Shown here: positions 1 to 64,000 of the stretch, in pieces
Layout of the letters: each line of letters opens with the position of its first letter
How positions within the stretch are numbered: the first letter of the stretch is position 1
Assembly: GCA_977862235.1 (NCBI GenBank)
Contig: OZ374559.1
Span: 2,046,001 to 2,110,000, forward strand
Length of the DNA: 64,000 nucleotides
DNA from: Dudresnaya verticillata
Lineage: Eukaryota
Reading direction: 5' to 3'
The notes under the pieces: generated by a model
The model's input: the letters and a program-made list of their open reading frames with translations, nothing else
Told to the model about the DNA's origin: nothing
Databases searched by the model: none
Program-made: the position numbers and the translations under genes

Positions 1-517
1 CAGTTTCCAGTGTAGAACGTCTGTTTTCACTTCACCTTATTGTCCAAAATATTTTACAGACTTGCATTGGTCTTGGGACGTCAATGCGTGCACAGTACTC
101 GAAGAATTTTTCACGTTTCTGCAGTTCATTTGTCCTTCTGGACATGGCACTTTCAGTCTAGAAATTTCGTTGAAGTAAATGAGAGTCGATGGCAAACCCA
201 CAAAATGTTCATCAGGCATGAACGATGTGAAAGGTTCCTCCTCTTCGCTTAGAATCTGATTCAAATTCGTCCATCATCAGTTACTACATCTGTACTGGAA
301 AGAATAGAAAGCTGAGTGGCACGTGTTATACACGGTAAGGAGGGGCCGCGGCTAGTGCATGGCTCTAAAACCAGCTCTAAAATATCATTGACATATAGTT
401 GAATGCCTTTCCCACTAATTGCATTTCTAATAACTCAGGTTTCGTCTCGAGTTGAATGACCTAGCTATCAGAGTGCTGGTGCAAGGCCGAACCCGTCCGG
501 AATCTCTGCAAACCTTG

Positions 518-624
518 AAGGCATCTCAAAAATATTACACTCTATCTATGTCTTCTGACAATGAGAGGTCTGGCCTGAGAACAGTTATTAAAAAACGCAT
601 TGGCTACCTAATGCATTCATTGTT
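518..624 (+). repeat. Diverged direct repeat of about 105 bp, paired with 4303-4407 within each array-1 unit
   Basis: Both sites share AAGGCATCTCAAAA...TATGTCTTCTG...AATGAGAGGTCT...AGTTATT...TACCTAATGCA.TCATTGTT. Confidence 0.85.
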
Positions 625-3131
625 ATGATATGCCGATAATGTTATATTATGTTAATGGGTTTCAGCATATACGGCTGCAAAATTCCTCTGCGTTCCATTG
701 CTTTATTATATGCGACAGTTCTGGTCCGCTCTAAACAACCACTTTCGATACTAATATCATGCAAAAAACAAATGAGCAACACTGGAGACTCCTGTTGCTA
801 TGTATGAGATAGCAACCTCTATTTATGTACCTTACCAAAAAATAATGATACAATGATACATTGTATACTAAATAAGAAGATTACCAGCATCGGTGCCCAC
901 TTCTGACAGAAAATAAACGTAGCCAAAATAAGGCAAAGTCAACTCAATCTATGAACGAGACCGGGAATGATAGGGACATAGCAACGAACTTCAGATTGAA
1001 GGGCACAGTATGTTATACTACCTTGTTTTGTTATCACTGAATCTCTATAAGGGTTTCAGTCTTGCAAATGGTTGAGAGCATTATGTTCGGAGTCAGTACG
1101 GTAAGAACCATTTTCTTGAGAGTACACACAAAGAGGAATTAAAGAACTATTGCCACAAATTCACAAATTGGGGTTGGGCCTTTGCGCCACCTCTAATCCT
1201 TTTGTGCTTCATATATCTCAGCGTTCTTATCGTACGAAAATAGTTCTATTCACAGGAATTGACTGAGACAACGCATTTAGTCTATGTTGTTGTCTCGGAC
1301 ACTAGCGATGAGAATACACGTTCACTCCAAGTGCCTTACAATGCAATACGTCTACTGGGAATTCTAGAGCCCGCGGTAAACTCTTTCCGCAGCGTGCAAC
1401 AGCAACAAGCATCGAACTGAGGTGCCAGCCGTGTGAAGAGCCGTTGACAGGAAGACGGTCCGACTCGCAAGGTAGCTTTCAGCACGGAGGCGAAACGTTG
1501 CGAGTCGGGCGGAAGAGGAGGGGGGTTTCTGCCAGCATGGAGATGCGCTCGGTACGAGTGGGATCGATGGAACAATGGCGAACATGTCGATGAGGCTGAC
1601 CACTCGTTCTGGGAGGATGCCCTGAAGCTGTTGGTTACGGAGAACCTATTTTTTGCAAAAATGGCGTCAGAGAAAATGGGCGCATATGCAACCGCGGAAG
1701 AGCCCCCTGTTCTGCCTACACAACATCCGTCAGATCCTTCCTACGTCAACATCTGAATTGAAAGATACCCTCGAAGGCCCTCGAAGGTACGACATCATCG
1801 GATAAACCATTGGCTGCTGTACCATGTTGCTACCGAAGAGAGCATTGCATTGCCTTCATACACCATATCGCCCAGCTAGGTCTGTGGACAGGAAGTTTAA
1901 TTTGCGCCGTCAACGATAGTTGCTTTGTAGAAAGTTTTGGATAACGCTACGTATGTTTCAAAGTAGAAAACCCGATTTGTCGCAAACTGAAAGGCGGATA
2001 ATCATGGAAAAAAGATTCGGTACAATGTGACTTTCGCAACACAACTCCGCGTTAGATGGTATGGCCATTCTGCCAGGCTCAATACGCCTTGAGTCGACCT
2101 CGAAATTCAGTAAGTACTCCCGGCCAGAAACATCTTCTGCCAACAAACATTAGCCCTAATTCTATGAATACTGCATCTTCTACTATTCTCGGAAGAGAGG
2201 AGACTCAGAAAATCTTCTGAGACATGCTGAGTCAGGAGAAAGGGAATGATGTAGGCAATTGTAGAAGATTTCTGATCTTGACGGGTTCAATCACCACCCA
2301 TTCGCTCGTTGCAATTTTTCATGTGATGACACATGTTCTCATAGGTTTGTTATAAACCCGATCGACTCTGTCTTGTGTTCTATTTTCATCACTCTCTTCC
2401 CTGTTTGTAATAAAAACAAGTCACTTTCCTTACAACTTGCAACGTGTAGAGCCAGTAACGTTACTGCTTCAGCTGTAGACCCACATATTCAGCTCAGTGA
2501 GTATGTGCTGCAAAGCGTTTTGCTTCTATTGCCAACCCTACACGCGTAACTTGACACTCCAAACAAAGGGGCTCGCGGCTCACACTTGCGCTTTCGTTTC
2601 TCAGCCGAGGAAACGACAAGTCTCCCTAACAATCCATCCATTAAGCTCTAGAGTCTGTTTGATATAAAATTGCATCTCCTCCATTGGCCCCCTCCAAGTC
2701 CATCCGCGGAGAGAGCGTCGATCGCAATGGGGAACGATACAGTCTACGAATGAAGTTTCAACGGAATCAGAGAGTACCAGATCCATGAGAGTTGAGCATA
2801 TGCAAATTGTACTGGCCAGCATATTCTGGACCATCTGGGCTTGCAAAGTAGCAGAACGTGCAGGGTGGGTGTTTCCCTTTTCCGGGTTCCAAGAATAGAA
2901 TTGCAAACATACCAACAGAAACAATGGAGGAATAGAGGATGCCATCCAGAACGGTTTCTTCCTTTTGCAGATCGACTGAATTCACATACAGAGACGCAGT
3001 CCTGATCTTCAACTTCACTGCTTGTAGTTCGGAGGAAGCAAGACAGAAAACGATACTTAAGAAGGTGGGTGACTGCGTTCTCGCTATTGCATTGCGTTCG
3101 CAAGCCACTACTCCTCAGCCTGCCTTCCGAA

Positions 3132-3938
3132 ATGAACACGCGGTTTGTATCTATCCCGATTTTACTGCTTCTCGCAGCGGCGGTTCTGCAACCGGCGGAG
3201 TCGTACAGGAGAAAGCATGAACGTTCAGCAGTCAGGAAGAATAGGGATGACTACCTCAAATCTACCGACGAAAAGATACTTGTGCCGGCTTGTGTAGTTA
3301 TAGGAGCGATTGGTGGTGCAGTTGCGCTGCGCAATCGGGCGTTCAGGTTGGCGTCTATCAGGGCCGCTTCCGAGCTAGAGAACGCCAGTTGGCCGGTTAA
3401 GTTGGCTATTGCGGCACTGGACACGGAAGTGGTCAAGTCGGCACTGGCATGCTTCTGCCAAACGACAAACACTGTGTGCCGCGAGAATCGAAAGAAAGAG
3501 GCGTGCCTTATATGTGCCGGGGTTTGTGGTTTCGCCGAGATGCTTCCGCCGCAGGGCAGGTCGGACATCGCAGACGAGCTGAGCGCGATGGGGAGGCAAT
3601 GCGCATCCGTGCAGACTGGCAGGCAGGTTGTTGTCGGAGGATCACAAGATGCGGTATACGGATCGGTGCGGGATATTGATGACGCCAACTTTTACCGGAA
3701 CAAGGTGAACAACTACATGAAGGATCTGGCGACGAGATGCCCGCAGACCGGTGGAGATTACAGCCCGGATTGTCAGCAGTACTACTCCGGCGTGGAGGCG
3801 CGGAACAAACTGCGACAGAAAGAGTTTGAATATTGGATTCTGAACGACTATAGGGAGGTGATGAAGTCCTATTCGTGTGGGGGCGACTGTCAAGGGATGG
3901 GTGTTCCTGGCGATGGGGGAGAGAAGCCGACCGGTTAG
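3132..3938 (+). CDS. Secreted or membrane-associated 12-Cys protein A (268 aa), unknown family, copy 1
   Basis: ATG at 3132 opens a typical signal peptide (MNTRFVSIPILLLLAAAVLQPAES). The protein aligns end to end with the 259-aa minus-strand paralog, with all 12 Cys conserved. The ORF-track start at 3069 is a non-ATG codon. Confidence 0.88.
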   Translation: MNTRFVSIPILLLLAAAVLQPAESYRRKHERSAVRKNRDDYLKSTDEKILVPACVVIGAIGGAVALRNRAFRLASIRAASELENASWPVKLAIAALDTEVVKSALACFCQTTNTVCRENRKKEACLICAGVCGFAEMLPPQGRSDIADELSAMGRQCASVQTGRQVVVGGSQDAVYGSVRDIDDANFYRNKVNNYMKDLATRCPQTGGDYSPDCQQYYSGVEARNKLRQKEFEYWILNDYREVMKSYSCGGDCQGMGVPGDGGEKPTG

Positions 3939-4164
3939 TCGAGCAACTGTGATCCTCGGCGGAGCCCATTCCTTGAGTACACAATGGGCCTGCGTTATAC
4001 GGAGAGGGGCTACTCTCACGGGGAGCATGGAAACTCCTATGGGAAGTACGTGCAGCATCCAGCATAGGATTGCCACCGGGACGGGAGTAGCCCGCTCTGA
4101 GCTTTAGTAAATTGTTGCGTGCGTTTGCCAAGAATGCTTCTTCCGTGACACCGCAGCCCCCGCT

Positions 4165-4299
4165 ACAACGGGCTACATCTCTGCGAGAGTACACGCGAGA
4201 CGGCGACGCGTATATTGTAGATGGCGGTGCTGCGCTTCCTTCTCGAACGAAATCGCATCGAACGTCTTCACCAGACACACCGTGGTATTGCGTCTCGCA
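4165..4299 (+). repeat. Dispersed repeat of about 135 bp shared with single-copy region 29622-29759
   Basis: ACAACGGGCTACATCTCTGCGAGAGTAC.CGCGAGACGGCGACGCGTATATTGTAGATGGCGGTGCT.CGCTTCCTTCTCGAACGAAA.CGCATCGAACGTCT occurs at both sites with few mismatches. Confidence 0.92.
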
Positions 4300-5084
4300 A
4301 GCAAGGCATCTCAAAAGGACTCCAACGTATGTCTTCTGCAAAATGAGAGGTCTAGCCAGAGAATAGTTATTCAAGTAACGTGTTAGTTACCTAATGCAGT
4401 CATTGTTGGCAATGGCGGTGTCGACCGTGATGAGTTTTCACGGACCCCTAGCTGGTTTCAGGATTTCGGGATGATATCATACAATGGCCTGTTTTAAGCG
4501 TCACTTCTCCCGGACGCTACCAGAGTCCAGTAGCACCGACATACACCCAATACAATACTGGGCTTCTAAACCCATGCTCCGCTAACCCCGAGTTTCAAAA
4601 TCACAATCCCATTTCCACCAGACTTGTGAGACCTCCATCCAATTTAGACATCACTGTAGAAAACAATGATGATGGAGACCTTTATGCATAGGAAAGTCCA
4701 AAGTAGTGAAGGCCCAGTATAAAACAAAAACGTATGGCCTCAGTTGTGAATCAGTACGGGAAAGGGGGTAGCCCGTAATGTTAACCTGAAGAAGGCATGC
4801 AAAAGAAAATCAGTATCACTGAAACAAGACCATCAAGAGTAAACATTCTGTCCGTGTATTTCAACATGTTCCATATAATGGAATAAGCGTTCTCTTTTTC
4901 TTGTTGCAGAGAATTGGTAGATCAAATGTATGATGCTAAACTTTGTTGTTTACGATTGCAACAGGAATAGAATCCGCCAGCATTGGCAATGGGTGGCCTA
5001 GAGCCACTGCCTTGTTCATCAAGGTATATTCTTATTATTCTTATACTGTATGCCTTGCATACGCCCTAGTTGTGTCAAGTTGCC

Positions 5085-5864
5085 CTACTGGCATTGGGAA
5101 TTGCACTTGTAGTGCTTTAGTAGAGCATTCATATCCGCCTTCATCAGTGACAAATACTTTGCGACGCGCACTTTATCGCGATCCTCTGACAGCTTCCCGC
5201 AAAGATCCACACTGTATGCCCCACCACTCTCGTTACACTTTTGGTTCAAGTGATAGATGAAATGTTCCACCCTTGCCGTGTACCACTCAACGCTACCTTG
5301 ACTGTTGACTACGCGAACAGTCGCAGCGCTCTCCACAATCACGTTGCTAGCGGCCGTAGGGCCTTGAAGAATTTGCTTGCCGTTTGTGCGGATTCCTGTG
5401 CATTCGTCCGCTCGATCGATCATCGCAAGGCTCTCCATCATATTCCCGTTCACAGGGTAAGAAGAAGCCACGGAACATGCGGTTGTGCACACGTGGCAAA
5501 CAGTAGCAGTTCGGGTTGCTCCGCATTCTGCGTACGACGCGTTACAGAAGCACCGGAGCAACCTCCGGCCTGGGTCAGTGTTGAGAGCGGCAAATGCCAA
5601 CCGTACCAGACGATTCTGGGCTGCGGCAGCTGCCACCAAGCGTAGCCCCCGAATTCGGAAAGCGAACAGTCCTCCGACGGCCACAGCCACTAAGCACACG
5701 GCTACGGCGTTCTTTTCCTGAGGGGTCTTGAGGTAGTCTGGCTTCTGCTCTACGGCAACGCTATCGTGCCTGGTCTTTGCGGATGCGATGGGTTGAATCA
5801 GCACCGCCACGAACAACATGAGCAGCGGAACAGTGGAAAGGGTTTTGGACATCATGACAGCCAT
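5085..5864 (-). CDS. Secreted or membrane-associated 12-Cys protein B (259 aa), paralog of A, copy 1
   Basis: Signal peptide (MAVMMSKTLSTVPLLMLFVAVLIQPIASA). Shares the DYLK(S/T)xxEK, LAxAALxT, CFC, CxxCxxxC, CxxxGGxYSxD and YxCxxxCQ motifs with protein A. The start could be any of the first three Met codons. Confidence 0.88.
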   Translation of the reverse strand: MAVMMSKTLSTVPLLMLFVAVLIQPIASAKTRHDSVAVEQKPDYLKTPQEKNAVAVCLVAVAVGGLFAFRIRGLRLVAAAAAQNRLVRLAFAALNTDPGRRLLRCFCNASYAECGATRTATVCHVCTTACSVASSYPVNGNMMESLAMIDRADECTGIRTNGKQILQGPTAASNVIVESAATVRVVNSQGSVEWYTARVEHFIYHLNQKCNESGGAYSVDLCGKLSEDRDKVRVAKYLSLMKADMNALLKHYKCNSQCQ

Positions 5865-5868
5865 TGCA

Positions 5869-5917
5869 GTGTGTGTTTGTGTGTGTGTGTGTGTGTGTAT
5901 GTGTGTGTGTGTGTGTG
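5869..5917. repeat. Interrupted (GT)n microsatellite directly upstream of gene B (one per unit)
   Basis: Directly visible. Copy 2 (near 12916-12966) has one extra GT, making that unit 7049 bp. Confidence 0.95.
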
Positions 5918-8900
5918 GGAGGGGGTCAAAATCGTATTACCAGTGCTCACGATGTAGTGGAGCAAGTTGCTTGGTAGCTTTCTGGGCGGACTGTTGATGT
6001 GATGGATCGTGATATTCATAGCCGCAAGTTGTTGCTTTACAATATATACCACTAGGAAGAGCAAGTGCAGGAAGCGGTATGGTGGTATGGTGTTCAACCA
6101 GGAGAACTACCACGTTGTAGTGTAGAAAACGGGGCCCGCTTTGTGGTCTACTCAGTTTAGGATCAGTTCTTTGAAAAGGGGAAGATACGCCTATGGCGTA
6201 GGGGTGAAGTGAGGGCTATGGCATTTGCCGATGAAGGAGTCTTTTCCGGAAGAGTTGTGGGAATGTTTGTATGGGTTTGATTGGTTGAAGGGCGCAAAGT
6301 ATTATTTAGATGAACATTTGTGTTTTTTGTTGCCATCGCAATCGGCTCCTCCTGTGCGAAGGGCGGAGCTCCGACACGTCGCCGATTCACTCCCAACCTC
6401 CCAATTTTCAAAGAGCCCCTTTATCCTCGACAAGACACTCCGCACAGCTCTTCGCCTACGCCAAATGTTGCGCAGTGCATTGAGCACTGCTGCATCCCGC
6501 GAATCTGTGTCCTTCTGTCCTTGGTAGGCCCATATTTGTTGGCTGCAAAGCTCCCATGCATTGTGTGTTCAAAGCGTAAAGCTTCGTAGTGACTGCAGCG
6601 CAGTTATAGCTTTTCGACATAATCCATGTCCTTCAAACACACTGATTCCCGTAATAGATTTCCGCCCTTCTCCTAGCAACATCACCTTAGGATGATGATC
6701 ACAAACTGGGCTACACATGTGGAGACACATAGAGGTGAGCTCTCTCACCTGAGAGATACTATTTTTTCTGTGGGATCCTCGGAAACGTTTTCTGCCTCAT
6801 ACACAGTAATTCAGTGGAAATCTGGATGTCACCGTACCAGTTCTGGCAATCTTTCTCGGCTGCTTAGATTCTTGACGCATATTAAGGCGATACTCCTAGA
6901 TTCTTTTGCATAGGCGTTTAGAGATGCGAAGCGCTAGATTTTACAGAGGAGTGCCTCCTCCTTGGTTATTGCTTCGGGGGAATCATGTATGTATAAATAG
7001 AGGCTGTCTGCAACCACATAGCTAACTTCAAAGTTTCCAAGCGTTAACAGTTTCCAGTGTAGAACGTCTGTTTTCACTTCACCTTATTGTCCAAAATATT
7101 TTACAGACTTGCATTGGTCTTGGGACGTCAATGCGTGCACAGTACTCGAAGAATTTTTCACGTTTCTGCAGTTCATTTGTCCTTCTGGACATGGCACTTT
7201 CAGTCTAGAAATTTCGTTGAAGTAAATGAGAGTCGATGGCAAACCCACAAAATGTTCATCAGGCATGAACGATGTGAAAGGTTCCTCCTCTTCGCTTAGA
7301 ATCTGATTCAAATTCGTCCATCATCAGTTACTACATCTGTACTGGAAAGAATAGAAAGCTGAGTGGCACGTGTTATACACGGTAAGGAGGGGCCGCGGCT
7401 AGTGCATGGCTCTAAAACCAGCTCTAAAATATCATTGACATATAGTTGAATGCCTTTCCCACTAATTGCATTTCTAATAACTCAGGTTTCGTCTCGAGTT
7501 GAATGACCTAGCTATCAGAGTGCTGGTGCAAGGCCGAACCCGTCCGGAATCTCTGCAAACCTTGAAGGCATCTCAAAAATATTACACTCTATCTATGTCT
7601 TCTGACAATGAGAGGTCTGGCCTGAGAACAGTTATTAAAAAACGCATTGGCTACCTAATGCATTCATTGTTATGATATGCCGATAATGTTATATTATGTT
7701 AATGGGTTTCAGCATATACGGCTGCAAAATTCCTCTGCGTTCCATTGCTTTATTATATGCGACAGTTCTGGTCCGCTCTAAACAACCACTTTCGATACTA
7801 ATATCATGCAAAAAACAAATGAGCAACACTGGAGACTCCTGTTGCTATGTATGAGATAGCAACCTCTATTTATGTACCTTACCAAAAAATAATGATACAA
7901 TGATACATTGTATACTAAATAAGAAGATTACCAGCATCGGTGCCCACTTCTGACAGAAAATAAACGTAGCCAAAATAAGGCAAAGTCAACTCAATCTATG
8001 AACGAGACCGGGAATGATAGGGACATAGCAACGAACTTCAGATTGAAGGGCACAGTATGTTATACTACCTTGTTTTGTTATCACTGAATCTCTATAAGGG
8101 TTTCAGTCTTGCAAATGGTTGAGAGCATTATGTTCGGAGTCAGTACGGTAAGAACCATTTTCTTGAGAGTACACACAAAGAGGAATTAAAGAACTATTGC
8201 CACAAATTCACAAATTGGGGTTGGGCCTTTGCGCCACCTCTAATCCTTTTGTGCTTCATATATCTCAGCGTTCTTATCGTACGAAAATAGTTCTATTCAC
8301 AGGAATTGACTGAGACAACGCATTTAGTCTATGTTGTTGTCTCGGACACTAGCGATGAGAATACACGTTCACTCCAAGTGCCTTACAATGCAATACGTCT
8401 ACTGGGAATTCTAGAGCCCGCGGTAAACTCTTTCCGCAGCGTGCAACAGCAACAAGCATCGAACTGAGGTGCCAGCCGTGTGAAGAGCCGTTGACAGGAA
8501 GACGGTCCGACTCGCAAGGTAGCTTTCAGCACGGAGGCGAAACGTTGCGAGTCGGGCGGAAGAGGAGGGGGGTTTCTGCCAGCATGGAGATGCGCTCGGT
8601 ACGAGTGGGATCGATGGAACAATGGCGAACATGTCGATGAGGCTGACCACTCGTTCTGGGAGGATGCCCTGAAGCTGTTGGTTACGGAGAACCTATTTTT
8701 TGCAAAAATGGCGTCAGAGAAAATGGGCGCATATGCAACCGCGGAAGAGCCCCCTGTTCTGCCTACACAACATCCGTCAGATCCTTCCTACGTCAACATC
8801 TGAATTGAAAGATACCCTCGAAGGCCCTCGAAGGTACGACATCATCGGATAAACCATTGGCTGCTGTACCATGTTGCTACCGAAGAGAGCATTGCATTGC

Positions 8901-10178
8901 CTTCATACACCATATCGCCCAGCTAGGTCTGTGGACAGGAAGTTTAATTTGCGCCGTCAACGATAGTTGCTTTGTAGAAAGTTTTGGATAACGCTACGTA
9001 TGTTTCAAAGTAGAAAACCCGATTTGTCGCAAACTGAAAGGCGGATAATCATGGAAAAAAGATTCGGTACAATGTGACTTTCGCAACACAACTCCGCGTT
9101 AGATGGTATGGCCATTCTGCCAGGCTCAATACGCCTTGAGTCGACCTCGAAATTCAGTAAGTACTCCCGGCCAGAAACATCTTCTGCCAACAAACATTAG
9201 CCCTAATTCTATGAATACTGCATCTTCTACTATTCTCGGAAGAGAGGAGACTCAGAAAATCTTCTGAGACATGCTGAGTCAGGAGAAAGGGAATGATGTA
9301 GGCAATTGTAGAAGATTTCTGATCTTGACGGGTTCAATCACCACCCATTCGCTCGTTGCAATTTTTCATGTGATGACACATGTTCTCATAGGTTTGTTAT
9401 AAACCCGATCGACTCTGTCTTGTGTTCTATTTTCATCACTCTCTTCCCTGTTTGTAATAAAAACAAGTCACTTTCCTTACAACTTGCAACGTGTAGAGCC
9501 AGTAACGTTACTGCTTCAGCTGTAGACCCACATATTCAGCTCAGTGAGTATGTGCTGCAAAGCGTTTTGCTTCTATTGCCAACCCTACACGCGTAACTTG
9601 ACACTCCAAACAAAGGGGCTCGCGGCTCACACTTGCGCTTTCGTTTCTCAGCCGAGGAAACGACAAGTCTCCCTAACAATCCATCCATTAAGCTCTAGAG
9701 TCTGTTTGATATAAAATTGCATCTCCTCCATTGGCCCCCTCCAAGTCCATCCGCGGAGAGAGCGTCGATCGCAATGGGGAACGATACAGTCTACGAATGA
9801 AGTTTCAACGGAATCAGAGAGTACCAGATCCATGAGAGTTGAGCATATGCAAATTGTACTGGCCAGCATATTCTGGACCATCTGGGCTTGCAAAGTAGCA
9901 GAACGTGCAGGGTGGGTGTTTCCCTTTTCCGGGTTCCAAGAATAGAATTGCAAACATACCAACAGAAACAATGGAGGAATAGAGGATGCCATCCAGAACG
10001 GTTTCTTCCTTTTGCAGATCGACTGAATTCACATACAGAGACGCAGTCCTGATCTTCAACTTCACTGCTTGTAGTTCGGAGGAAGCAAGACAGAAAACGA
10101 TACTTAAGAAGGTGGGTGACTGCGTTCTCGCTATTGCATTGCGTTCGCAAGCCACTACTCCTCAGCCTGCCTTCCGAA

Positions 10179-10985
10179 ATGAACACGCGGTTTGTATCTA
10201 TCCCGATTTTACTGCTTCTCGCAGCGGCGGTTCTGCAACCGGCGGAGTCGTACAGGAGAAAGCATGAACGTTCAGCAGTCAGGAAGAATAGGGATGACTA
10301 CCTCAAATCTACCGACGAAAAGATACTTGTGCCGGCTTGTGTAGTTATAGGAGCGATTGGTGGTGCAGTTGCGCTGCGCAATCGGGCGTTCAGGTTGGCG
10401 TCTATCAGGGCCGCTTCCGAGCTAGAGAACGCCAGTTGGCCGGTTAAGTTGGCTATTGCGGCACTGGACACGGAAGTGGTCAAGTCGGCACTGGCATGCT
10501 TCTGCCAAACGACAAACACTGTGTGCCGCGAGAATCGAAAGAAAGAGGCGTGCCTTATATGTGCCGGGGTTTGTGGTTTCGCCGAGATGCTTCCGCCGCA
10601 GGGCAGGTCGGACATCGCAGACGAGCTGAGCGCGATGGGGAGGCAATGCGCATCCGTGCAGACTGGCAGGCAGGTTGTTGTCGGAGGATCACAAGATGCG
10701 GTATACGGATCGGTGCGGGATATTGATGACGCCAACTTTTACCGGAACAAGGTGAACAACTACATGAAGGATCTGGCGACGAGATGCCCGCAGACCGGTG
10801 GAGATTACAGCCCGGATTGTCAGCAGTACTACTCCGGCGTGGAGGCGCGGAACAAACTGCGACAGAAAGAGTTTGAATATTGGATTCTGAACGACTATAG
10901 GGAGGTGATGAAGTCCTATTCGTGTGGGGGCGACTGTCAAGGGATGGGTGTTCCTGGCGATGGGGGAGAGAAGCCGACCGGTTAG
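10179..10985 (+). CDS. 12-Cys protein A, copy 2
   Basis: Translation identical to copy 1. Confidence 0.88.
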   Translation: MNTRFVSIPILLLLAAAVLQPAESYRRKHERSAVRKNRDDYLKSTDEKILVPACVVIGAIGGAVALRNRAFRLASIRAASELENASWPVKLAIAALDTEVVKSALACFCQTTNTVCRENRKKEACLICAGVCGFAEMLPPQGRSDIADELSAMGRQCASVQTGRQVVVGGSQDAVYGSVRDIDDANFYRNKVNNYMKDLATRCPQTGGDYSPDCQQYYSGVEARNKLRQKEFEYWILNDYREVMKSYSCGGDCQGMGVPGDGGEKPTG

Positions 10986-12131
10986 TCGAGCAACTGTGAT
11001 CCTCGGCGGAGCCCATTCCTTGAGTACACAATGGGCCTGCGTTATACGGAGAGGGGCTACTCTCACGGGGAGCATGGAAACTCCTATGGGAAGTACGTGC
11101 AGCATCCAGCATAGGATTGCCACCGGGACGGGAGTAGCCCGCTCTGAGCTTTAGTAAATTGTTGCGTGCGTTTGCCAAGAATGCTTCTTCCGTGACACCG
11201 CAGCCCCCGCTACAACGGGCTACATCTCTGCGAGAGTACACGCGAGACGGCGACGCGTATATTGTAGATGGCGGTGCTGCGCTTCCTTCTCGAACGAAAT
11301 CGCATCGAACGTCTTCACCAGACACACCGTGGTATTGCGTCTCGCAAGCAAGGCATCTCAAAAGGACTCCAACGTATGTCTTCTGCAAAATGAGAGGTCT
11401 AGCCAGAGAATAGTTATTCAAGTAACGTGTTAGTTACCTAATGCAGTCATTGTTGGCAATGGCGGTGTCGACCGTGATGAGTTTTCACGGACCCCTAGCT
11501 GGTTTCAGGATTTCGGGATGATATCATACAATGGCCTGTTTTAAGCGTCACTTCTCCCGGACGCTACCAGAGTCCAGTAGCACCGACATACACCCAATAC
11601 AATACTGGGCTTCTAAACCCATGCTCCGCTAACCCCGAGTTTCAAAATCACAATCCCATTTCCACCAGACTTGTGAGACCTCCATCCAATTTAGACATCA
11701 CTGTAGAAAACAATGATGATGGAGACCTTTATGCATAGGAAAGTCCAAAGTAGTGAAGGCCCAGTATAAAACAAAAACGTATGGCCTCAGTTGTGAATCA
11801 GTACGGGAAAGGGGGTAGCCCGTAATGTTAACCTGAAGAAGGCATGCAAAAGAAAATCAGTATCACTGAAACAAGACCATCAAGAGTAAACATTCTGTCC
11901 GTGTATTTCAACATGTTCCATATAATGGAATAAGCGTTCTCTTTTTCTTGTTGCAGAGAATTGGTAGATCAAATGTATGATGCTAAACTTTGTTGTTTAC
12001 GATTGCAACAGGAATAGAATCCGCCAGCATTGGCAATGGGTGGCCTAGAGCCACTGCCTTGTTCATCAAGGTATATTCTTATTATTCTTATACTGTATGC
12101 CTTGCATACGCCCTAGTTGTGTCAAGTTGCC

Positions 12132-33037: not shown

Positions 33038-33103
33038 GCATAAAACCCCGCGGCGGCCGCGCCCGCCTCGCCGCCCGCCCCGCCGCCGCCCGCCCCCGAC
33101 AAA

Positions 33104-40559: not shown

Positions 40560-40661
40560 CGCCGTACTCACAACAGATTTAAGAAACGAAACGATGGCAC
40601 AATCCAACCCAAGAGCAGACCTGAAACAACGGATCACAACCTCGACCAGCAACACTTCATC

Positions 40662-53800: not shown

Positions 53801-55388
53801 GCCAAGTTGTACATATTTGAATGTTTTCTTACTATGGTCCTAAGCGGACGAACTGGGCATATCTTCTTCTGCACCCACACTCCGGTTACAGTTGTCGCAA
53901 GTTGTGTAGAAGAGTTTTGAAACCTCTGGGAGCCCTGTCCAGGATACTCGCACAGAGCTGCCCCCGTCACGCATAGTGCAGCACAGCCGAAAAAACTTTA
54001 TCGAACTGTAGCGTGTGGCTGTGAAAGACCCGATGTCCTATTTTGAGACGCGTTTTGCTGCATTCGCGCCCTCTCATGCATTTCTGTGGCTGTGCAGAAG
54101 CGTAGAGCGAGAGAGGAGTAACGCTGGAATAGTCCACACGAGGGAAGTGTAGTGAATACTGCGATCCTTCCTTCGTTTAATCGCTGAGCGTTGCACCTCA
54201 AGACTTTCAAAATGGAACAAAGGCCCGTGGTCTGCACGTGTCAATGGATAGGCTATAGTAGCGTATCCCTCCATATTGGGATAGCCGTGGTACTTTATCG
54301 CGAGGTATTGGAGCGAGCACGGGTCCGCGTTCAAACGAAGCCTCAATACAAAGACGTTGAATGAAAGTCAAGTCGGGCCCTCCCATTGCAAAGTGCTTTC
54401 CGGGTTCATTCCACAGTTGCAGCTGTGAGACCAACAAATGGCAACGCAAGTAAGCGCGTTGCAATGAGCCACAAGTTGATTGGGAAGATTGAGACTCCGT
54501 GAGATTCTCGAGGTTTTCCATTACGGGATTCACAGCTGTGAGACAGCAGTACATAATACAAACTCCTGTTGTTACATTCTTTGAGCTAGAATCGTTTCCT
54601 ATTCCGTGACTCTAGTGCTGCGTGTGATACACTGCAGTATGGTTTCTTAAACAGCGAGTCGCGGCAATGCCCGCGCTCATGAGTAAACGTTTCTCATGAC
54701 AATGCTCACGAGTTTTCGCGTTGCCAGACACGAGTCTTGGATGTTTTGCATGCTGCAATGCATGGAGTCCTACACCCTTTGCATGTTGCCTCTCGAGGGC
54801 ATGCGCACACTCTGTGGCCACACTTCTCTCTCATGCTCTCTGTAGATGGTCGAAAATCCCAAACCGCATAAACACGAAACGAATCGTCTGGCCACGCGCA
54901 ATGGTAAGTGGTACATCTTACGGTAAGAAGATGTGATGTGCGGTCGGAAATGGAACGATTTAGGTAGTACCTTGGGATACTTTCCCCTGCCACCCAGTCG
55001 AAGCACTGCCGAAAGGGCAGCTCTGCGCGCAGAGTGTACGGTAGAAGCCAGAGGATATGGATGGCAACCACACAAGAAGCTCAGAAGGTTGGTTCTGAAG
55101 AACCTGTGTAATAATTGATGGTGATGGTGATCCAAGCGTTCAAAAAAGAAACAATGCTCTGGGTTTTGTCATACAAGCTGTTTGCACGCTTCCAAAATGC
55201 TCTATTCTCTTGGTGATACGTTGAAAGTCCCCTGCTGCATCTTCTTGCCTTGTTGAGAACTTTTAGCCAAAGGGTTGGTATTTAAACGCCGTACTCACAA
55301 CAGATTTAAGAAACGAAACGATGGCACAATCCAACCCAAGAGCAGACCTGAAACAACGGATCACAACCTCGACCAGCAACACTTCATC

Positions 55389-55733
55389 ATGATCGGGAGG
55401 GCCATTTCTCTCTTCGTGCTTCTTCTTCTGGTGAACTTCGCTGCCGCCAATATATGCACAGTTTCACGACTTCGTGGACTCTGCGTCCCAATTGCAACCT
55501 GCCGATCGCAAAGACGCGTGCCACGTTTTAGTAGGAGTTGTGCAAGGGGATTGGGATGCTGTATAGGGTATCGTTTGAGAAAATGTACGGTGATAGTTCG
55601 CCGATCAACAGGCGCAAGGCTTGCAGTAGGTGTTTGCTTACCAAGCTTTGCCTGCAAAAGAGGATTTCAAACTTTACCGACCAGGAGCTGCGGTGGAAGC
55701 AGCCTCATCAAGTGTTGTTTCAATCCTCGCTAG
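55389..55733 (+). CDS. Double-domain defensin-like peptide C, copy 4
   Basis: Identical translation. Confidence 0.88.
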   Translation: MIGRAISLFVLLLLVNFAAANICTVSRLRGLCVPIATCRSQRRVPRFSRSCARGLGCCIGYRLRKCTVIVRRSTGARLAVGVCLPSFACKRGFQTLPTRSCGGSSLIKCCFNPR

Positions 55734-58700
55734 TAGAGACCAAGAACATAGTTGCAAAGCCCACAAGGATCAGTTCAGTGTTTTCGTGAAGAAAGCGCTC
55801 GACATTGGTCTGTCATCATGAGCACAAACATACGGCTACAGCAGCAGAAGAATGTATTTTGTTTGCTGCAGTTTAGCAACAGCCGCTACATTTATGGGAA
55901 CAAGTGTTGCTGGTCGCTTAGAACTCTTGTTCTTTAATAAAGGTCTCTCTCTCTCTCTTAGAACGAATGGATTAAATGTGGAATTGTCTGTATGTACATC
56001 TCGCGCCACAATATGTCAGTGTAGTCAGTGCAGCATTTCTCGCCACGATATCCTTCGCAATCAGCTTGTGACCTTTCTCCGCAGCATTGCTCTCCACCGT
56101 GGTATTAGTACTCAGCAGAAGCGCAACTTGTCCTACTTCGAGGAGGCCTTGGATCCCCACATCGTTGCCCACGTAAGATCACCTTAAAGAAAAAGTAAAC
56201 GTTTACCATCACGTCGTGGCCGTTGTCCTTTTGTGGATTCCTCTGCACTCAACGCGTCTGAACGGTGCCGCGATGCCTGTCAGTTGCAGCATGCTGAAGA
56301 CCGTACATATTAAAACCACAGTCATGACCGTCCTAGTATAGATCTTTAATTGAATGACCCTGCGGTGACACCATCTCGTAAGCATTGAAAGTCTCTGTGG
56401 TCAGCCCGCACAGTCCTTCTACCATTTCAAGTATGCGCCGCTCTCAACATCACGCTATTCATCACTGCGAGCAATCGAAAATCCTCCATTATCGTCGATT
56501 GTGTTCAAACAACCGGACCTCCTACCGATGGCGACGTACATTTATGTGCAAGCATCCCTTTATTCTCAAAGTGGAGAGTAAGCCCCTTAAAGGGAATTAA
56601 TATGCACTGTTGCTAACAGTATGCGTGAGGGGTGACGACCGAGACATCAAATGCTTGGAGGGTGGGGGGCGAAGCTACTGTCATCTATGAAAATGTCCAT
56701 AGAAGCTGATCACGGCGAAGCTCAGGTGAGTCGTTGGTGCATTTATGTGAGCCATTAGTTGTGTGAGCCATTGGCTCCAGAATCGCTCGTGGCGTTCAGG
56801 CTCAGCGGTTCAGCGAGCTCCGATTTTCTTGGAAACTCTAAAGATACTTGGTCGACGACTGAGAAGCTCTCTCGTCTCTCGCTGAACTCCCACACGTCTG
56901 CCGTGCTTCAATTCACCGCAGTGGCTTTTAGTCACCGCAAGTTTGCGGGCAAACCCTCTAACCGTCGCTTCTCATGTTCGAAAACACGACTCCACACGTA
57001 TAATTAACACTTTGTGCGTGACAATTGAGTTGCAAAGTTGCTCGACCACGATTACAAACCATTTCGTACTTCTTCCTTTCTTCCGGCAACGTTGACCTTC
57101 CGTGCTTCTTCGAGCGAGTTCTCCTTAATACTACATTACGCACCAGCTCACAGATTAGTTTACCACGACTTTTTCGAAACGAGAGTAGTATCACTCTGTG
57201 ACTCCTCAAGAAGCACTGCTACCAAGCAAGCATCCCTTTAATCGCAACATTCAGAGAACCAATGTCGGCTTCTGAGCGCCACTCGTTCAACTATATTCCA
57301 ATGACTCCACATTCATTCAGACTCATTCTTTCCTGCGGCGGATGCACAACGACCACACATCTTAGATAGTCTGATCGGTGTTGACAGCAGCTGTCTTACC
57401 GCGCCGCTACTTCGCTGCCCTCGTTGCCTTCCCACAACCAACAACGTCTTCCGTCACATGCCTTTCGCAATATGCTCAGCTTACTCACTTATTGAACAAT
57501 TGTACAATCCACTGGCGTTGACGCCTCCGAATAGGCAACGTTTCAGTGCGTTTAACAGTAGTTTGCGTTTAACAACTTGACCCGTTGGGATGAAGACAAC
57601 CACTACTGCAGAAGTCGAGAGACCGGGAGCCCCAACAAAACTTTCTACTTCCAACGATGTTTACATGTTGCCGCCTCGCCCCACTTAACAATGAGATTGA
57701 ACCTTAACTTTTCCTGCACTGTCTCCCATGCTCACAAGAGTCGCTGCGGAGATGGAATTGTTTTACAATGCCATGGAAGGGTAGTTGCTTCTTTCGGTGT
57801 CCAGCTTTGTTGTATTGTCTTCGTATGGTGTCAGCCCTCCTCCTGCTCTTGTGCCACAACAGTTCTTTTGCTGCCACTCATTTGAGTTTGGGTACAAATT
57901 TGCGTGGTCGGAATGGCATCTTTCTCAACTCTCAGAAGAGCTCTCTGCCCTATGCTCCGTATTGCGCAGATCGCATCTGCGGCAAAAGGGCGGGTTCAGG
58001 AATTACCACACCACCACTCGACTATACGTGGCCGCGTTGCAGAAATCAAGTTCCGCACCATAGGCTCAGGTCCACCGGACAATATGGATGGTGGTTATGA
58101 TCATAGCGGTAGGCAGGTGAACGCCAAGCGGTAGAATAATGAGGGGTCCCGTGACCGCCCTTACTTGACCAAATGCAGTCTAAAGCTCAGTAGTAACCGT
58201 CACCCCCCTCTACGCAGCTGAGTATCGGGGAAGCAACCCAGCAGATGCAACTCTTGCGCTGGCTATGACTGGCAGCACGGTTTATTTCAGACTTGCCTCG
58301 CTATCATTCGTTAGCAATTAATCGTCGTCCAGTTGCAATCTCTGTTGTCCCTCTAGACTCTGGAGCGTCCTAGCGCCGCTATCTCTCTTCTGAATAATCT
58401 TCCCCCTTCTCTCTTTCTCTCAGAACAGTGAACTCGAGATCGTTACAAAACTCGAACAGACTCTGGCAGACTTCGTAGATACGTACCTGCCGTGTATCTA
58501 AAACGTTTGTTTATGCCGCAGCTTCGCTTGCTCCATGCCCACCTCTTAACCTCACATCCGCCATATGCTGCGAAGCAGTAGCAATATAGCCCCTTCCAGA
58601 AGCTATTCTTCATCATATGTCATGGTCTTCCTTTTTATCCCACTTCTTCGTAGGATCCTTCATCCCTTTTCTCTCTGAACACTCTCACCAGATATCAAAG

Positions 58701-60297
58701 CCCGTTACAGCCAAGTTGTACATATTTGAATGTTTTCTTACTATGGTCCTAAGCGGACGAACTGGGCATATCTTCTTCTGCACCCACACTCCGGTTACAG
58801 TTGTCGCAAGTTGTGTAGAAGAGTTTTGAAACCTCTGGGAGCCCTGTCCAGGATACTCGCACAGAGCTGCCCCCGTCACGCATAGTGCAGCACAGCCGAA
58901 AAAACTTTATCGAACTGTAGCGTGTGGCTGTGAAAGACCCGATGTCCTATTTTGAGACGCGTTTTGCTGCATTCGCGCCCTCTCATGCATTTCTGTGGCT
59001 GTGCAGAAGCGTAGAGCGAGAGAGGAGTAACGCTGGAATAGTCCACACGAGGGAAGTGTAGTGAATACTGCGATCCTTCCTTCGTTTAATCGCTGAGCGT
59101 TGCACCTCAAGACTTTCAAAATGGAACAAAGGCCCGTGGTCTGCACGTGTCAATGGATAGGCTATAGTAGCGTATCCCTCCATATTGGGATAGCCGTGGT
59201 ACTTTATCGCGAGGTATTGGAGCGAGCACGGGTCCGCGTTCAAACGAAGCCTCAATACAAAGACGTTGAATGAAAGTCAAGTCGGGCCCTCCCATTGCAA
59301 AGTGCTTTCCGGGTTCATTCCACAGTTGCAGCTGTGAGACCAACAAATGGCAACGCAAGTAAGCGCGTTGCAATGAGCCACAAGTTGATTGGGAAGATTG
59401 AGACTCCGTGAGATTCTCGAGGTTTTCCATTACGGGATTCACAGCTGTGAGACAGCAGTACATAATACAAACTCCTGTTGTTACATTCTTTGAGCTAGAA
59501 TCGTTTCCTATTCCGTGACTCTAGTGCTGCGTGTGATACACTGCAGTATGGTTTCTTAAACAGCGAGTCGCGGCAATGCCCGCGCTCATGAGTAAACGTT
59601 TCTCATGACAATGCTCACGAGTTTTCGCGTTGCCAGACACGAGTCTTGGATGTTTTGCATGCTGCAATGCATGGAGTCCTACACCCTTTGCATGTTGCCT
59701 CTCGAGGGCATGCGCACACTCTGTGGCCACACTTCTCTCTCATGCTCTCTGTAGATGGTCGAAAATCCCAAACCGCATAAACACGAAACGAATCGTCTGG
59801 CCACGCGCAATGGTAAGTGGTACATCTTACGGTAAGAAGATGTGATGTGCGGTCGGAAATGGAACGATTTAGGTAGTACCTTGGGATACTTTCCCCTGCC
59901 ACCCAGTCGAAGCACTGCCGAAAGGGCAGCTCTGCGCGCAGAGTGTACGGTAGAAGCCAGAGGATATGGATGGCAACCACACAAGAAGCTCAGAAGGTTG
60001 GTTCTGAAGAACCTGTGTAATAATTGATGGTGATGGTGATCCAAGCGTTCAAAAAAGAAACAATGCTCTGGGTTTTGTCATACAAGCTGTTTGCACGCTT
60101 CCAAAATGCTCTATTCTCTTGGTGATACGTTGAAAGTCCCCTGCTGCATCTTCTTGCCTTGTTGAGAACTTTTAGCCAAAGGGTTGGTATTTAAACGCCG
60201 TACTCACAACAGATTTAAGAAACGAAACGATGGCACAATCCAACCCAAGAGCAGACCTGAAACAACGGATCACAACCTCGACCAGCAACACTTCATC

Positions 60298-60642
60298 ATG
60301 ATCGGGAGGGCCATTTCTCTCTTCGTGCTTCTTCTTCTGGTGAACTTCGCTGCCGCCAATATATGCACAGTTTCACGACTTCGTGGACTCTGCGTCCCAA
60401 TTGCAACCTGCCGATCGCAAAGACGCGTGCCACGTTTTAGTAGGAGTTGTGCAAGGGGATTGGGATGCTGTATAGGGTATCGTTTGAGAAAATGTACGGT
60501 GATAGTTCGCCGATCAACAGGCGCAAGGCTTGCAGTAGGTGTTTGCTTACCAAGCTTTGCCTGCAAAAGAGGATTTCAAACTTTACCGACCAGGAGCTGC
60601 GGTGGAAGCAGCCTCATCAAGTGTTGTTTCAATCCTCGCTAG
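60298..60642 (+). CDS. Double-domain defensin-like peptide C, copy 5
   Basis: Identical translation. Confidence 0.88.
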   Translation: MIGRAISLFVLLLLVNFAAANICTVSRLRGLCVPIATCRSQRRVPRFSRSCARGLGCCIGYRLRKCTVIVRRSTGARLAVGVCLPSFACKRGFQTLPTRSCGGSSLIKCCFNPR

Positions 60643-63600
60643 TAGAGACCAAGAACATAGTTGCAAAGCCCACAAGGATCAGTTCAGTGTTTTCGTGAAG
60701 AAAGCGCTCGACATTGGTCTGTCATCATGAGCACAAACATACGGCTACAGCAGCAGAAGAATGTATTTTGTTTGCTGCAGTTTAGCAACAGCCGCTACAT
60801 TTATGGGAACAAGTGTTGCTGGTCGCTTAGAACTCTTGTTCTTTAATAAAGGTCTCTCTCTCTCTCTTAGAACGAATGGATTAAATGTGGAATTGTCTGT
60901 ATGTACATCTCGCGCCACAATATGTCAGTGTAGTCAGTGCAGCATTTCTCGCCACGATATCCTTCGCAATCAGCTTGTGACCTTTCTCCGCAGCATTGCT
61001 CTCCACCGTGGTATTAGTACTCAGCAGAAGCGCAACTTGTCCTACTTCGAGGAGGCCTTGGATCCCCACATCGTTGCCCACGTAAGATCACCTTAAAGAA
61101 AAAGTAAACGTTTACCATCACGTCGTGGCCGTTGTCCTTTTGTGGATTCCTCTGCACTCAACGCGTCTGAACGGTGCCGCGATGCCTGTCAGTTGCAGCA
61201 TGCTGAAGACCGTACATATTAAAACCACAGTCATGACCGTCCTAGTATAGATCTTTAATTGAATGACCCTGCGGTGACACCATCTCGTAAGCATTGAAAG
61301 TCTCTGTGGTCAGCCCGCACAGTCCTTCTACCATTTCAAGTATGCGCCGCTCTCAACATCACGCTATTCATCACTGCGAGCAATCGAAAATCCTCCATTA
61401 TCGTCGATTGTGTTCAAACAACCGGACCTCCTACCGATGGCGACGTACATTTATGTGCAAGCATCCCTTTATTCTCAAAGTGGAGAGTAAGCCCCTTAAA
61501 GGGAATTAATATGCACTGTTGCTAACAGTATGCGTGAGGGGTGACGACCGAGACATCAAATGCTTGGAGGGTGGGGGGCGAAGCTACTGTCATCTATGAA
61601 AATGTCCATAGAAGCTGATCACGGCGAAGCTCAGGTGAGTCGTTGGTGCATTTATGTGAGCCATTAGTTGTGTGAGCCATTGGCTCCAGAATCGCTCGTG
61701 GCGTTCAGGCTCAGCGGTTCAGCGAGCTCCGATTTTCTTGGAAACTCTAAAGATACTTGGTCGACGACTGAGAAGCTCTCTCGTCTCTCGCTGAACTCCC
61801 ACACGTCTGCCGTGCTTCAATTCACCGCAGTGGCTTTTAGTCACCGCAAGTTTGCGGGCAAACCCTCTAACCGTCGCTTCTCATGTTCGAAAACACGACT
61901 CCACACGTATAATTAACACTTTGTGCGTGACAATTGAGTTGCAAAGTTGCTCGACCACGATTACAAACCATTTCGTACTTCTTCCTTTCTTCCGGCAACG
62001 TTGACCTTCCGTGCTTCTTCGAGCGAGTTCTCCTTAATACTACATTACGCACCAGCTCACAGATTAGTTTACCACGACTTTTTCGAAACGAGAGTAGTAT
62101 CACTCTGTGACTCCTCAAGAAGCACTGCTACCAAGCAAGCATCCCTTTAATCGCAACATTCAGAGAACCAATGTCGGCTTCTGAGCGCCACTCGTTCAAC
62201 TATATTCCAATGACTCCACATTCATTCAGACTCATTCTTTCCTGCGGCGGATGCACAACGACCACACATCTTAGATAGTCTGATCGGTGTTGACAGCAGC
62301 TGTCTTACCGCGCCGCTACTTCGCTGCCCTCGTTGCCTTCCCACAACCAACAACGTCTTCCGTCACATGCCTTTCGCAATATGCTCAGCTTACTCACTTA
62401 TTGAACAATTGTACAATCCACTGGCGTTGACGCCTCCGAATAGGCAACGTTTCAGTGCGTTTAAAAGTAGTTTGCGTTTAACAACTTGACCCGTTGGGAT
62501 GAAGACAACCACTACTGCAGAAGTCGAGAGACCGGGAGCCCCAACAAAACTTTCTACTTCCAACGATGTTTACATGTTGCCGCCTCGCCCCACTTAACAA
62601 TGAGATTGAACCTTAACTTTTCCTGCACTGTCTCCCATGCTCACAAGAGTCGCTGCGGAGATGGAATTGTTTTACAATGCCATGGAAGGGTAGTTGCTTC
62701 TTTCGGTGTCCAGCTTTGTTGTATTGTCTTCGTATGGTGTCAGCCCTCCTCCTGCTCTTGTGCCACAACAGTTCTTTTGCTGCCACTCATTTGAGTTTGG
62801 GTACAAATTTGCGTGGTCGGAATGGCATCTTTCTCAACTCTCAGAAGAGCTCTCTGCCCTATGCTCCGTATTGCGCAGATCGCATCTGCGGCAAAAGGGC
62901 GGGTTCAGGAATTACCACACCACCACTCGACTATACGTGGCCGCGTTGCAGAAATCAAGTTCCGCACCATAGGCTCAGGTCCACCGGACAATATGGATGG
63001 TGGTTATGATCATAGCGGTAGGCAGGTGAACGCCAAGCGGTAGAATAATGAGGGGTCCCGTGACCGCCCTTACTTGACCAAATGCAGTCTAAAGCTCAGT
63101 AGTAACCGTCACCCCCCTCTACGCAGCTGAGTATCGGGGAAGCAACCCAGCAGATGCAACTCTTGCGCTGGCTATGACTGGCAGCACGGTTTATTTCAGA
63201 CTTGCCTCGCTATCATTCGTTAGCAATTAATCGTCGTCCAGTTGCAATCTCTGTTGTCCCTCTAGACTCTGGAGCGTCCTAGCGCCGCTATCTCTCTTCT
63301 GAATAATCTTCCCCCTTCTCTCTTTCTCTCAGAACAGTGAACTCGAGATCGTTACAAAACTCGAACAGACTCTGGCAGACTTCGTAGATACGTACCTGCC
63401 GTGTATCTAAAACGTTTGTTTATGCCGCAGCTTCGCTTGCTCCATGCCCACCTCTTAACCTCACATCCGCCATATGCTGCGAAGCAGTAGCAATATAGCC
63501 CCTTCCAGAAGCTATTCTTCATCATATGTCATGGTCTTCCTTTTTATCCCACTTCTTCGTAGGATCCTTCATCCCTTTTCTCTCTGAACACTCTCACCAG

Positions 63601-64000
63601 ATATCAAAGCCCGTTACAGCCAAGTTGTACATATTTGAATGTTTTCTTACTATGGTCCTAAGCGGACGAACTGGGCATATCTTCTTCTGCACCCACACTC
63701 CGGTTACAGTTGTCGCAAGTTGTGTAGAAGAGTTTTGAAACCTCTGGGAGCCCTGTCCAGGATACTCGCACAGAGCTGCCCCCGTCACGCATAGTGCAGC
63801 ACAGCCGAAAAAACTTTATCGAACTGTAGCGTGTGGCTGTGAAAGACCCGATGTCCTATTTTGAGACGCGTTTTGCTGCATTCGCGCCCTCTCATGCATT
63901 TCTGTGGCTGTGCAGAAGCGTAGAGCGAGAGAGGAGTAACGCTGGAATAGTCCACACGAGGGAAGTGTAGTGAATACTGCGATCCTTCCTTCGTTTAATC

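What the first reader, a model, noticed from the sequence alone, without database searches (positions are those of the whole stretch)
1..64000. Two unrelated, very young gene-amplification arrays flank a 9-kb core; three unrelated secreted Cys-rich families lie within about 17 kb
Seen: the 7047-bp and 4909-bp units show no similarity to each other that I can see. Each is almost perfectly homogeneous and carries only secreted-type Cys-rich genes. A third Cys-rich secreted family (33104-33529) sits between them. The array DNA is much less GC-rich than the core genes. Inference: a copy-number-variable defence or effector island (gene accordion), with independent recent selection for dosage on both sides.
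Basis: partly seen in the sequence, partly recalled or inferred. Interest (0 to 1): 0.75.

Follow-up and report, generated by a model that had tools for sequence, protein, structure and literature searches.

The report
Amplified defensin-like genes, red alga
In what is likely a red seaweed genome, two unrelated DNA blocks are each repeated head to tail in almost identical copies, at least four and five times, on either side of four single-copy genes; one block carries a gene predicted to encode a secreted defensin-like protein and the other two genes of an unknown family predicted to be secreted, so this is likely a recent boost in the dose of surface-defence genes, though no reads were available to confirm the copy number.

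Summary
The anatomy is confirmed. The left array (1-27684; 7047-bp unit, 3.9 units in the window) and the right array (36654-64000; 4909-bp unit, 5.6 units) share no sequence, are over 99.9% homogeneous and flank a 9-kb GC-rich core. The host is likely a red alga (a core-gene relative clusters with Porphyra umbilicalis). The left unit holds two old paralogues (29% identical, 12 Cys, signal-peptide-like start) with no relatives in any library searched. The right unit holds one cationic gene with two six-Cys repeats; its second repeat is predicted to have the beta-defensin fold (10 of 12 structural hits, best Z 4.9). The third Cys-rich gene is single-copy and GC-rich like the core, so it is not part of the amplification. 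One variant shared by adjacent left units argues for real copies, but read depth, copy-number variation, expression and selection could not be tested, and the right array's copy number could be inflated by assembly. Canonical Helitron ends are absent. Verdict: a new example of a known kind (tandem amplification of secreted-protein genes); the interesting part is a possible double beta-defensin in a red alga. 'Island under independent dosage selection' remains a hypothesis.

The parts
1..27684 (.). Left tandem array, unit 7047 bp (one unit 7049), at least 3.9 units, runs off the window
24275..25081 (+). Gene A1, 268 aa, signal-peptide-like start, second hydrophobic segment, 12 Cys; identical copies at 3132-3938, 10179-10985, 17228-18034
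   Evidence: no homologue
26228..27007 (-). Gene A2, 259 aa, paralogue of A1 (29% identity, E 5e-32), tail to tail with A1; identical copies at 5085-5864, 12132-12911, 19181-19960
25308..25442 (+). Element E1 in each left unit, 93% identical to 29622-29759 upstream of the core PCS-like gene
25446..25550 (+). Element E2, directly after E1, 79% identical to 21661-21767 in the same unit
27685..36653 (.). Single-copy GC-rich core (about 9.0 kb, 65.9% GC)
29931..31426 (+). Phytochelatin-synthase-like gene (PF05023, E 2.9e-10); one-base frameshift near 30665 relative to two relatives; start uncertain
32000..32851 (+). Uracil-DNA glycosylase superfamily gene (PF03167, E 5.4e-05, just under the curated cut-off); start uncertain
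33104..33529 (+). Gene C, 141 aa, signal-peptide-like start, two C-x2-C-x5-C-x4-C-x4-C repeats, single copy, GC3 0.99
   Evidence: no homologue
33782..35768 (-). Glycosyltransferase family 61 gene (PF04577, E 2.9e-12) with two apparent spliceosomal introns; the exons after the first were read by eye
36654..64000 (.). Right tandem array, unit 4909 bp, at least 5.6 units, runs off the window
40662..41006 (+). Gene B, 114 aa, signal-peptide-like start, two six-Cys repeats ending in CC, cationic, second repeat predicted beta-defensin-like; identical copies at 45571, 50480, 55389, 60298

Best explanation
The two near-identical arrays are likely real, recent tandem amplifications of predicted secreted-protein genes in a probable red alga, likely grown by unequal crossing-over, and they would raise the dose of surface-defence proteins, the right-hand one a predicted double beta-defensin. 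Shown: the array anatomy, the homogeneity, the A1/A2 paralogy with coding-type divergence, and the lack of sequence relation between the three families. Predicted: secretion of all four proteins and the fold of B's second repeat. Inferred: that the copies are real, that each array began as a local segmental duplication, and the lineage. Untested: expression, antimicrobial or enzyme-inhibitor activity, copy-number variation and selection. My split: arrays exist in the genome about 0.8; B acts in defence about 0.5; copy number was selected for dose about 0.35.
For: Left-array variant at 1525/8572/15621/22668 reads G,G,A,A: shared by neighbours, as stepwise duplication gives and random error does not. 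The units next to the core show no decay up to the boundary, which fits recent growth better than an old homogenised array (inference). GC falls gradually inside the unique flanks, with no step at either boundary, and the left unit shares a 93% element with the core, which argues against a chimeric join. A1/A2 codon-position identity is 0.50/0.57/0.34 and 22 of 27 four-fold sites differ, so these are old, constrained genes. B: 19 Lys+Arg and no Asp/Glu after residue 22; model pLDDT about 78 over the second repeat; helianthamide is the top hit in both Foldseek (E 1.7) and VIA-align (Z 4.9, rmsd 1.8 A, 40 of 44 residues), and by title and my recall 10 of the 12 hits with Z of 2 or more among 48,161 chains are beta-defensin-fold proteins. 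Precedents with the same unit scale: Avr1a 4 x 5.2 kb and ToxB 3-5 x 5.8-11.4 kb.
Against: The right array has five identical units over 24.5 kb; an assembler cannot easily count these, and the single variant could be an error. The core has a one-base frameshift in a gene that is open at that point in two relatives, so the consensus may hold errors. Structural scores for B are low (best Z 4.9, Foldseek E 1.7, single-sequence model, pTM 0.51), the first repeat is poorly modelled, the two repeats are only weakly alike (171 of 5000 shuffles), and the beta-defensin fold also covers enzyme inhibitors and channel toxins. A1/A2 give no functional clue (pLDDT 44.6; no fold match). 77-93% of each unit is non-coding, and nothing here separates selection from drift. 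Homogeneity alone does not prove youth, since concerted evolution gives it too.
Confidence: 0.5

Rival explanations
1. The arrays are real but neutral: gene-poor, low-GC DNA around a GC-rich gene cluster duplicates easily, and lineage-specific secreted genes simply live in that DNA. The proteins might be wall, mucilage or signalling proteins and not defence proteins.
For: Coding share is only 22.5% and 7.0%; the non-coding DNA of the two units has similar dinucleotide profiles (distance 55 against 122-140 to the core flanks) with mild CpG depletion, so both belong to one compartment. Small duplicated pieces E1 and E2 show older local reshuffling. Tandem gene clusters of extracellular vWA proteins are reported in the red alga Bostrychia (passages).
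Against: Both units centre on intact genes with signal-peptide-like starts, rare in simulated DNA (0 of 300 each), and no transposon remnant was found in them. The simulation shows the genes are real, not that amplification favoured them.
Confidence: 0.27
2. The assembler over-expanded one or both arrays (most plausibly the right one) from a single copy, a short array or a circular concatemer.
For: Five identical right units; both arrays are longer than typical accurate long reads (own knowledge); a frameshift in the core hints at consensus errors.
Against: Shared and private variants among left units; clean, consistent head-to-tail junctions that differ from the flank; assemblers more often collapse than expand such repeats (own knowledge).
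Confidence: 0.15
3. The units are non-autonomous rolling-circle (Helitron-like) elements with captured genes, as proposed for ToxB-HLE, or both arrays arose by one site-directed event.
For: Head-to-tail perfect units without target duplications; a 7-bp-stem hairpin about 50 nt before the left unit's end (3 of 200 shuffles fold as well, but I chose the stretch to start at the hairpin); both internal junctions carry the same 7-mer pointing at the core (154 of 20000 random pairs).
Against: No 5' TC start and no CTRR end at either internal junction on either strand, no terminal inverted repeats, no RepHel or transposase domain in 70 frames scanned, no notable hairpin at the other three unit ends. 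The 7-mer was noticed after the fact.
Confidence: 0.08

Closest known systems
Phytophthora sojae Avr1a locus (four near-identical 5.2-kb units) and Avr3a (10.8-kb unit, one or four copies); PMC2661136, abstract read
   Same: Near-identical multi-kb tandem units around small secreted-protein genes; same unit scale and copy number.
   Different: There, copy-number variation and phenotype are shown and the host is an oomycete pathogen; here neither is shown, the host is probably an alga, and two unrelated arrays sit 9 kb apart.
ToxB tandem units of Pyrenophora tritici-repentis (5.8-11.4 kb, 3-5 copies, Helitron-like); 10.1101/2025.11.13.688278, abstract and sections 12 and 16 read
   Same: Perfect head-to-tail repeats with sharp edges carrying a small secreted-protein gene and much non-coding DNA.
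   Different: No Helitron-type ends, transposon or RT fragments found here; no read validation here.
Double beta-defensin-fold proteins: tick carboxypeptidase inhibitor and the rusticalin N-terminal domain (PMC6339383, passages read); avian AvBD11 and helianthamide (hits)
   Same: Signal peptide plus two six-Cys repeats ending in CC; predicted fold of B's second repeat.
   Different: Cys spacing differs (B: x8-x5-x12-x5-CC and x16-x5-x11-x7-CC; rusticalin: x6-x6/7-x8-x7-CC); no sequence match to Pfam or PDB; B has no peptidase domain; disulphides not determined.
Human alpha- and beta-defensin copy-number clusters, yeast CUP1, poxvirus gene accordions (recalled, from no call)
   Same: Dose of a small defence gene changed by tandem copy number.
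   Different: An accordion needs shown expansion and contraction under selection; not testable here.

Membership tests
Gene accordion / adaptive tandem amplification | Head-to-tail near-identical units containing intact genes | tested here: met
Gene accordion / adaptive tandem amplification | Copies confirmed by read depth or spanning reads | not testable with these tools
   no run was listed; no genome held
Gene accordion / adaptive tandem amplification | Copy number varies between individuals and follows selection | not testable with these tools
   one sequence only
Beta-defensin-fold peptides (gene B) | Secreted, six Cys per domain ending in CC | tested here: met
   hydrophobic N-terminus and Cys spacing; no signal-peptide predictor was run
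Beta-defensin-fold peptides (gene B) | Beta-defensin-like fold | tested here: inconclusive
   second repeat: best Z 4.9, rmsd 1.8 A over 40 residues, hits consistent but scores low; Foldseek E 1.7; first repeat poorly modelled
Beta-defensin-fold peptides (gene B) | Sequence match to a defensin family profile | tested here: not met
   no Pfam family for the whole protein or either repeat; no defensin in PDB sequences
Beta-defensin-fold peptides (gene B) | C1-C5, C2-C4, C3-C6 disulphides (recalled) and antimicrobial or inhibitor activity | not testable with these tools
Canonical Helitron | 5' TC start and 3' CTRR end (10.1101/2025.11.13.688278, section 16) | tested here: not met
   internal junction sequences; a CTGA lies just beyond the left boundary but not at the internal junctions
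Canonical Helitron | Hairpin shortly before the 3' end | tested here: inconclusive
   one 7-bp stem about 50 nt before the left unit end, none notable at the other three ends
Canonical Helitron | RepHel gene (autonomous copies only) | tested here: not met
   does not exclude a non-autonomous element
Dickkopf N-terminal Cys-rich domain (gene C) | Pfam PF04706 or structural match | tested here: inconclusive
   no Pfam match; Atlas row at 0.77 with 24% of members carrying the family, below the tool's 0.9 line; no fold was predicted for C

The most novel reading that the evidence does not exclude
Red seaweeds have a beta-defensin-fold immune peptide family, and this locus is a two-sided, copy-number-variable defence island in which a double defensin and a new two-gene secreted family (possibly membrane-active, given the Gly-rich hydrophobic segment after the pro-region) were amplified recently under microbial pressure, perhaps by one shared recombination trigger at both junctions.
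Probability: 0.22. Interest if true: 0.72.

Novelty: new member of a known kind. Interest (0 to 1): 0.42.

Why it matters
Red algal defence is mostly described as chemical (own knowledge). A secreted double beta-defensin-like gene present in at least five identical copies would give a concrete, easily expressed candidate for protein-based immunity in this lineage and would widen the range of the fold. A copy-number-variable locus would be a ready marker for disease resistance in seaweeds. The A1/A2 pair is an old, constrained family with no match among 1.84 billion representative proteins. The amplification mechanism itself is ordinary.

Tried and rejected
No whole genome is held, so array extent, dispersed copies and genome-wide enrichment were not examined. 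No sequencing run was listed for 24200-34199: no RNA holder listed; depth and expression stay open. Homologue searches were empty for A1, B, C, the A1/A2 profile against 1.84 billion representatives, exact look-up of 8 window proteins (0 of 8), C in metagenome contigs, A and B in viral contigs and A in prokaryote genomes; eukaryote coverage of these libraries is unknown, so this does not prove the families are orphans. Atlas scores for B (0.78) and C (0.78) are under the 0.9 line. PDB sequence searches gave only chance hits. The A1 model was poor and Foldseek found nothing; the VIA search on it was not run, and C was not folded. Tick carboxypeptidase inhibitor is not among the 12 VIA rows for B, which does not exclude it. 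Hidden genes: 70 of the 117 stop-to-stop frames listed were scanned and none reached a Pfam cut-off (most of the 47 left out overlap called genes, about a dozen do not); no Rfam match in 20642-41562; one-intron frames in the non-coding parts are no longer than simulated ones. A viral or bacterial origin of the units found no support. Synteny: the two relatives' contigs (1.8 and 4.4 kb) are too short; no other window gene matched them. Earlier findings by place and sequence were empty; the word searches gave unrelated loci. No complex was predicted, as I claim no binding.

Full report
Observation. Self-comparison of the window shows two arrays of direct repeats. The left one has unit ends at 6545, 13594, 20641 and 27688 (periods 7049, 7047, 7047); exact agreement with the internal junction stops at 27684. 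The right one starts at 36654 with period 4909. The window holds 3.93 and 5.57 units and both arrays leave it, so these are minimums. Left units differ by a G/A site (G,G,A,A in order), a site private to unit 4, a two-base microsatellite gain in unit 2 and one base at the boundary. Right units 1-5 are identical; the partial sixth has one substitution. Mean pairwise difference is about 2.5e-4 and 8e-5 per site. The two units share nothing beyond a 19-nt match at E 0.35 and no tblastx match.

Host. No genome is held. The core has a phytochelatin-synthase-like gene, a uracil-DNA glycosylase, gene C and a GT61 gene; the last has two apparent spliceosomal introns with branch-point-like motifs (read by eye). 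A scan of metagenome contigs with the PCS-like protein gave 2 relatives among 487 pattern matches, at 65% and 56% identity; the second clusters with Porphyra umbilicalis OSX74965.1, the first carries no name. A red alga is therefore likely (about 0.85); the species is not determined.

Genes in the arrays. The left unit holds A1 (24275-25081, +) and A2 (27007-26228, -), tail to tail. They are paralogues (29% identity, E 5e-32), each with 12 Cys in similar spacing, a hydrophobic N-terminus and a second, Gly-containing hydrophobic segment near residues 47-66. Codon-position identity of 0.50/0.57/0.34 and differences at 22 of 27 four-fold sites show old genes under constraint. No relative was found; the single-sequence model is poor but helical (pLDDT 44.6) and matched nothing. 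The right unit holds B (40662-41006, +): 114 aa, hydrophobic N-terminus, two six-Cys repeats ending in CC, 19 Lys+Arg and no acidic residue after position 22. It has no sequence relatives. Its model has pLDDT about 78 over the second repeat and 48-63 over the first. Foldseek ranks helianthamide first but weakly (E 1.7). VIA-align against 48,161 chains gave 12 hits with Z of 2 or more; the best is helianthamide (Z 4.9, rmsd 1.8 A, 40 of 44 residues), and 10 of the 12 are beta-defensins, the big-defensin C-terminal domain or anemone peptides that I recall share that fold; the other two are NFAP2 and a clip domain. The tool warns that Z under 8 may mean only a common arrangement; the target domains are only about 40 residues long and the hits agree with each other, so I rate the fold as probable, not shown. 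Two such repeats behind a signal peptide recall tick carboxypeptidase inhibitor and rusticalin (PMC6339383, passages), with different Cys spacing. The fold allows antimicrobial, enzyme-inhibitor or signalling roles; the charge favours the first.

Is there anything else in the units? None of 70 other frames (of 117 listed) reached a Pfam cut-off, Rfam found nothing, and one-intron frames in the non-coding parts are no longer than simulated ones. Coding DNA is 22.5% of the left unit and 7.0% of the right.

The third family. Gene C (33104-33529) has two C-x2-C-x5-C-x4-C-x4-C repeats (53 of 5000 shuffles) and no relatives; the Atlas offers only a weak Dickkopf-like lead. It is unrelated to A and B (189-386 of 1000 and 2371 of 5000 shuffles). 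It is single-copy with GC3 0.99, like the other core genes (0.86-0.93) and unlike A1, A2 and B (0.63, 0.61, 0.44). It looks like a long-standing member of the core and not part of an amplified island.

Composition. The arrays are 47.6% and 48.4% GC against 65.9% for the core, and the contrast holds for non-coding DNA. GC declines inside the unique flanks, with no step at either boundary, and the two units resemble each other in dinucleotide profile. A 138-bp element in each left unit is 93% identical to DNA upstream of the core PCS-like gene and abuts a 105-bp piece repeated elsewhere in the unit. This ties the left unit to the same genome as the core. The right unit has no such link.

Real or artefact? 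No run was listed, so depth could not be tested. For reality: the G,G,A,A pattern, consistent junctions and the compositional continuity. Against: five identical right units, which an assembler cannot count reliably, and a one-base frameshift in the core PCS-like gene where both relatives read through, which is an assembly error or a pseudogene. I put the existence of both arrays at about 0.8, with exact copy numbers uncertain.

Mechanism. The simplest path is a local segmental duplication on each side followed by unequal crossing-over (inference). The boundary units show no decay, which fits recent growth, though concerted evolution cannot be excluded. Canonical Helitron ends, terminal inverted repeats and transposase domains are absent; one hairpin near the left unit's end is weak evidence. 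Both internal junctions carry the same 7-mer oriented towards the core (154 of 20000 random pairs) and the right junction lies in a 10-bp palindrome (63 of 4909 positions). These were noticed after the fact, but they leave the independence of the two events open. Selection for dose is plausible for a cationic secreted peptide and has precedents, but nothing here separates it from drift.

Comparison with print. Arrays of this scale around secreted-protein genes are known: Avr1a and Avr3a (PMC2661136, abstract) and ToxB (10.1101/2025.11.13.688278, abstract and sections 12 and 16). Defensin copy-number clusters, CUP1 and poxvirus accordions are recalled, from no call. In red algae, tandem vWA gene clusters are reported in Bostrychia (10.1101/2025.02.11.637652, passages); the Porphyra dioica/linearis preprint mentions only satellite and 5S arrays in the passages seen (10.64898/2026.05.14.725108). 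Searches listed no paper on near-identical multi-kb arrays of secreted genes or on beta-defensin-fold genes in red algae; I saw listings only (20 of 373, 4 of 5, 0, 15 of 22, 0, 0 and 9 of 10), the library lacks most subscription journals, and supplements of the bioRxiv genome papers, which could list such genes, were not seen.

Verdict. Observation confirmed; interpretation partly supported. A new member of a known kind, with one feature worth following: a probable double beta-defensin gene, amplified, in a probable red alga. Interest 0.42; the bold reading has probability about 0.22 and would deserve about 0.72.

Noticed in passing
window 30640-30690: The phytochelatin-synthase-like core gene has a one-base frameshift where both relatives (L001, L002) read through: assembly error or recent pseudogene.
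   Followed up: partly
window 20638-20644 (+) and 41563-41557 (-): Both arrays' internal junctions carry GCTGCAA pointing towards the core (154 of 20000 random pairs share 7 nt); the right junction sits in a 10-bp palindrome.
   Followed up: partly
window 28403-28579: 177-bp stretch bounded by an 8-bp inverted repeat (CACTGTAG...CTACAGTG) with internal palindromes, possibly a miniature DNA transposon; the first 148 nt fold no better than shuffles.
   Followed up: partly
window 25308-25550: The DNA after gene A1 is a mosaic of a piece shared with the PCS-like gene's upstream region and a piece shared with 21661-21767.
   Followed up: partly
window 21088-21250: A TATA-like box (TATAAATA) followed by UTR-like sequence with no gene behind it in the left unit; possibly a lost gene or element promoter. 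Seen by eye.
   Followed up: no
window 22591-22899: A 102-aa frame with protein-like composition and no Pfam match; two of the left array's substitutions (22651, 22668) fall in it, 17 nt apart.
   Followed up: partly
L002:1783-3411 and window 29931-31426: The PCS-like protein has an N-terminal phytochelatin-synthase domain plus a conserved C-terminal half of about 250 aa without a Pfam family above cut-off (51% identical to the Porphyra-like relative).
   Followed up: no
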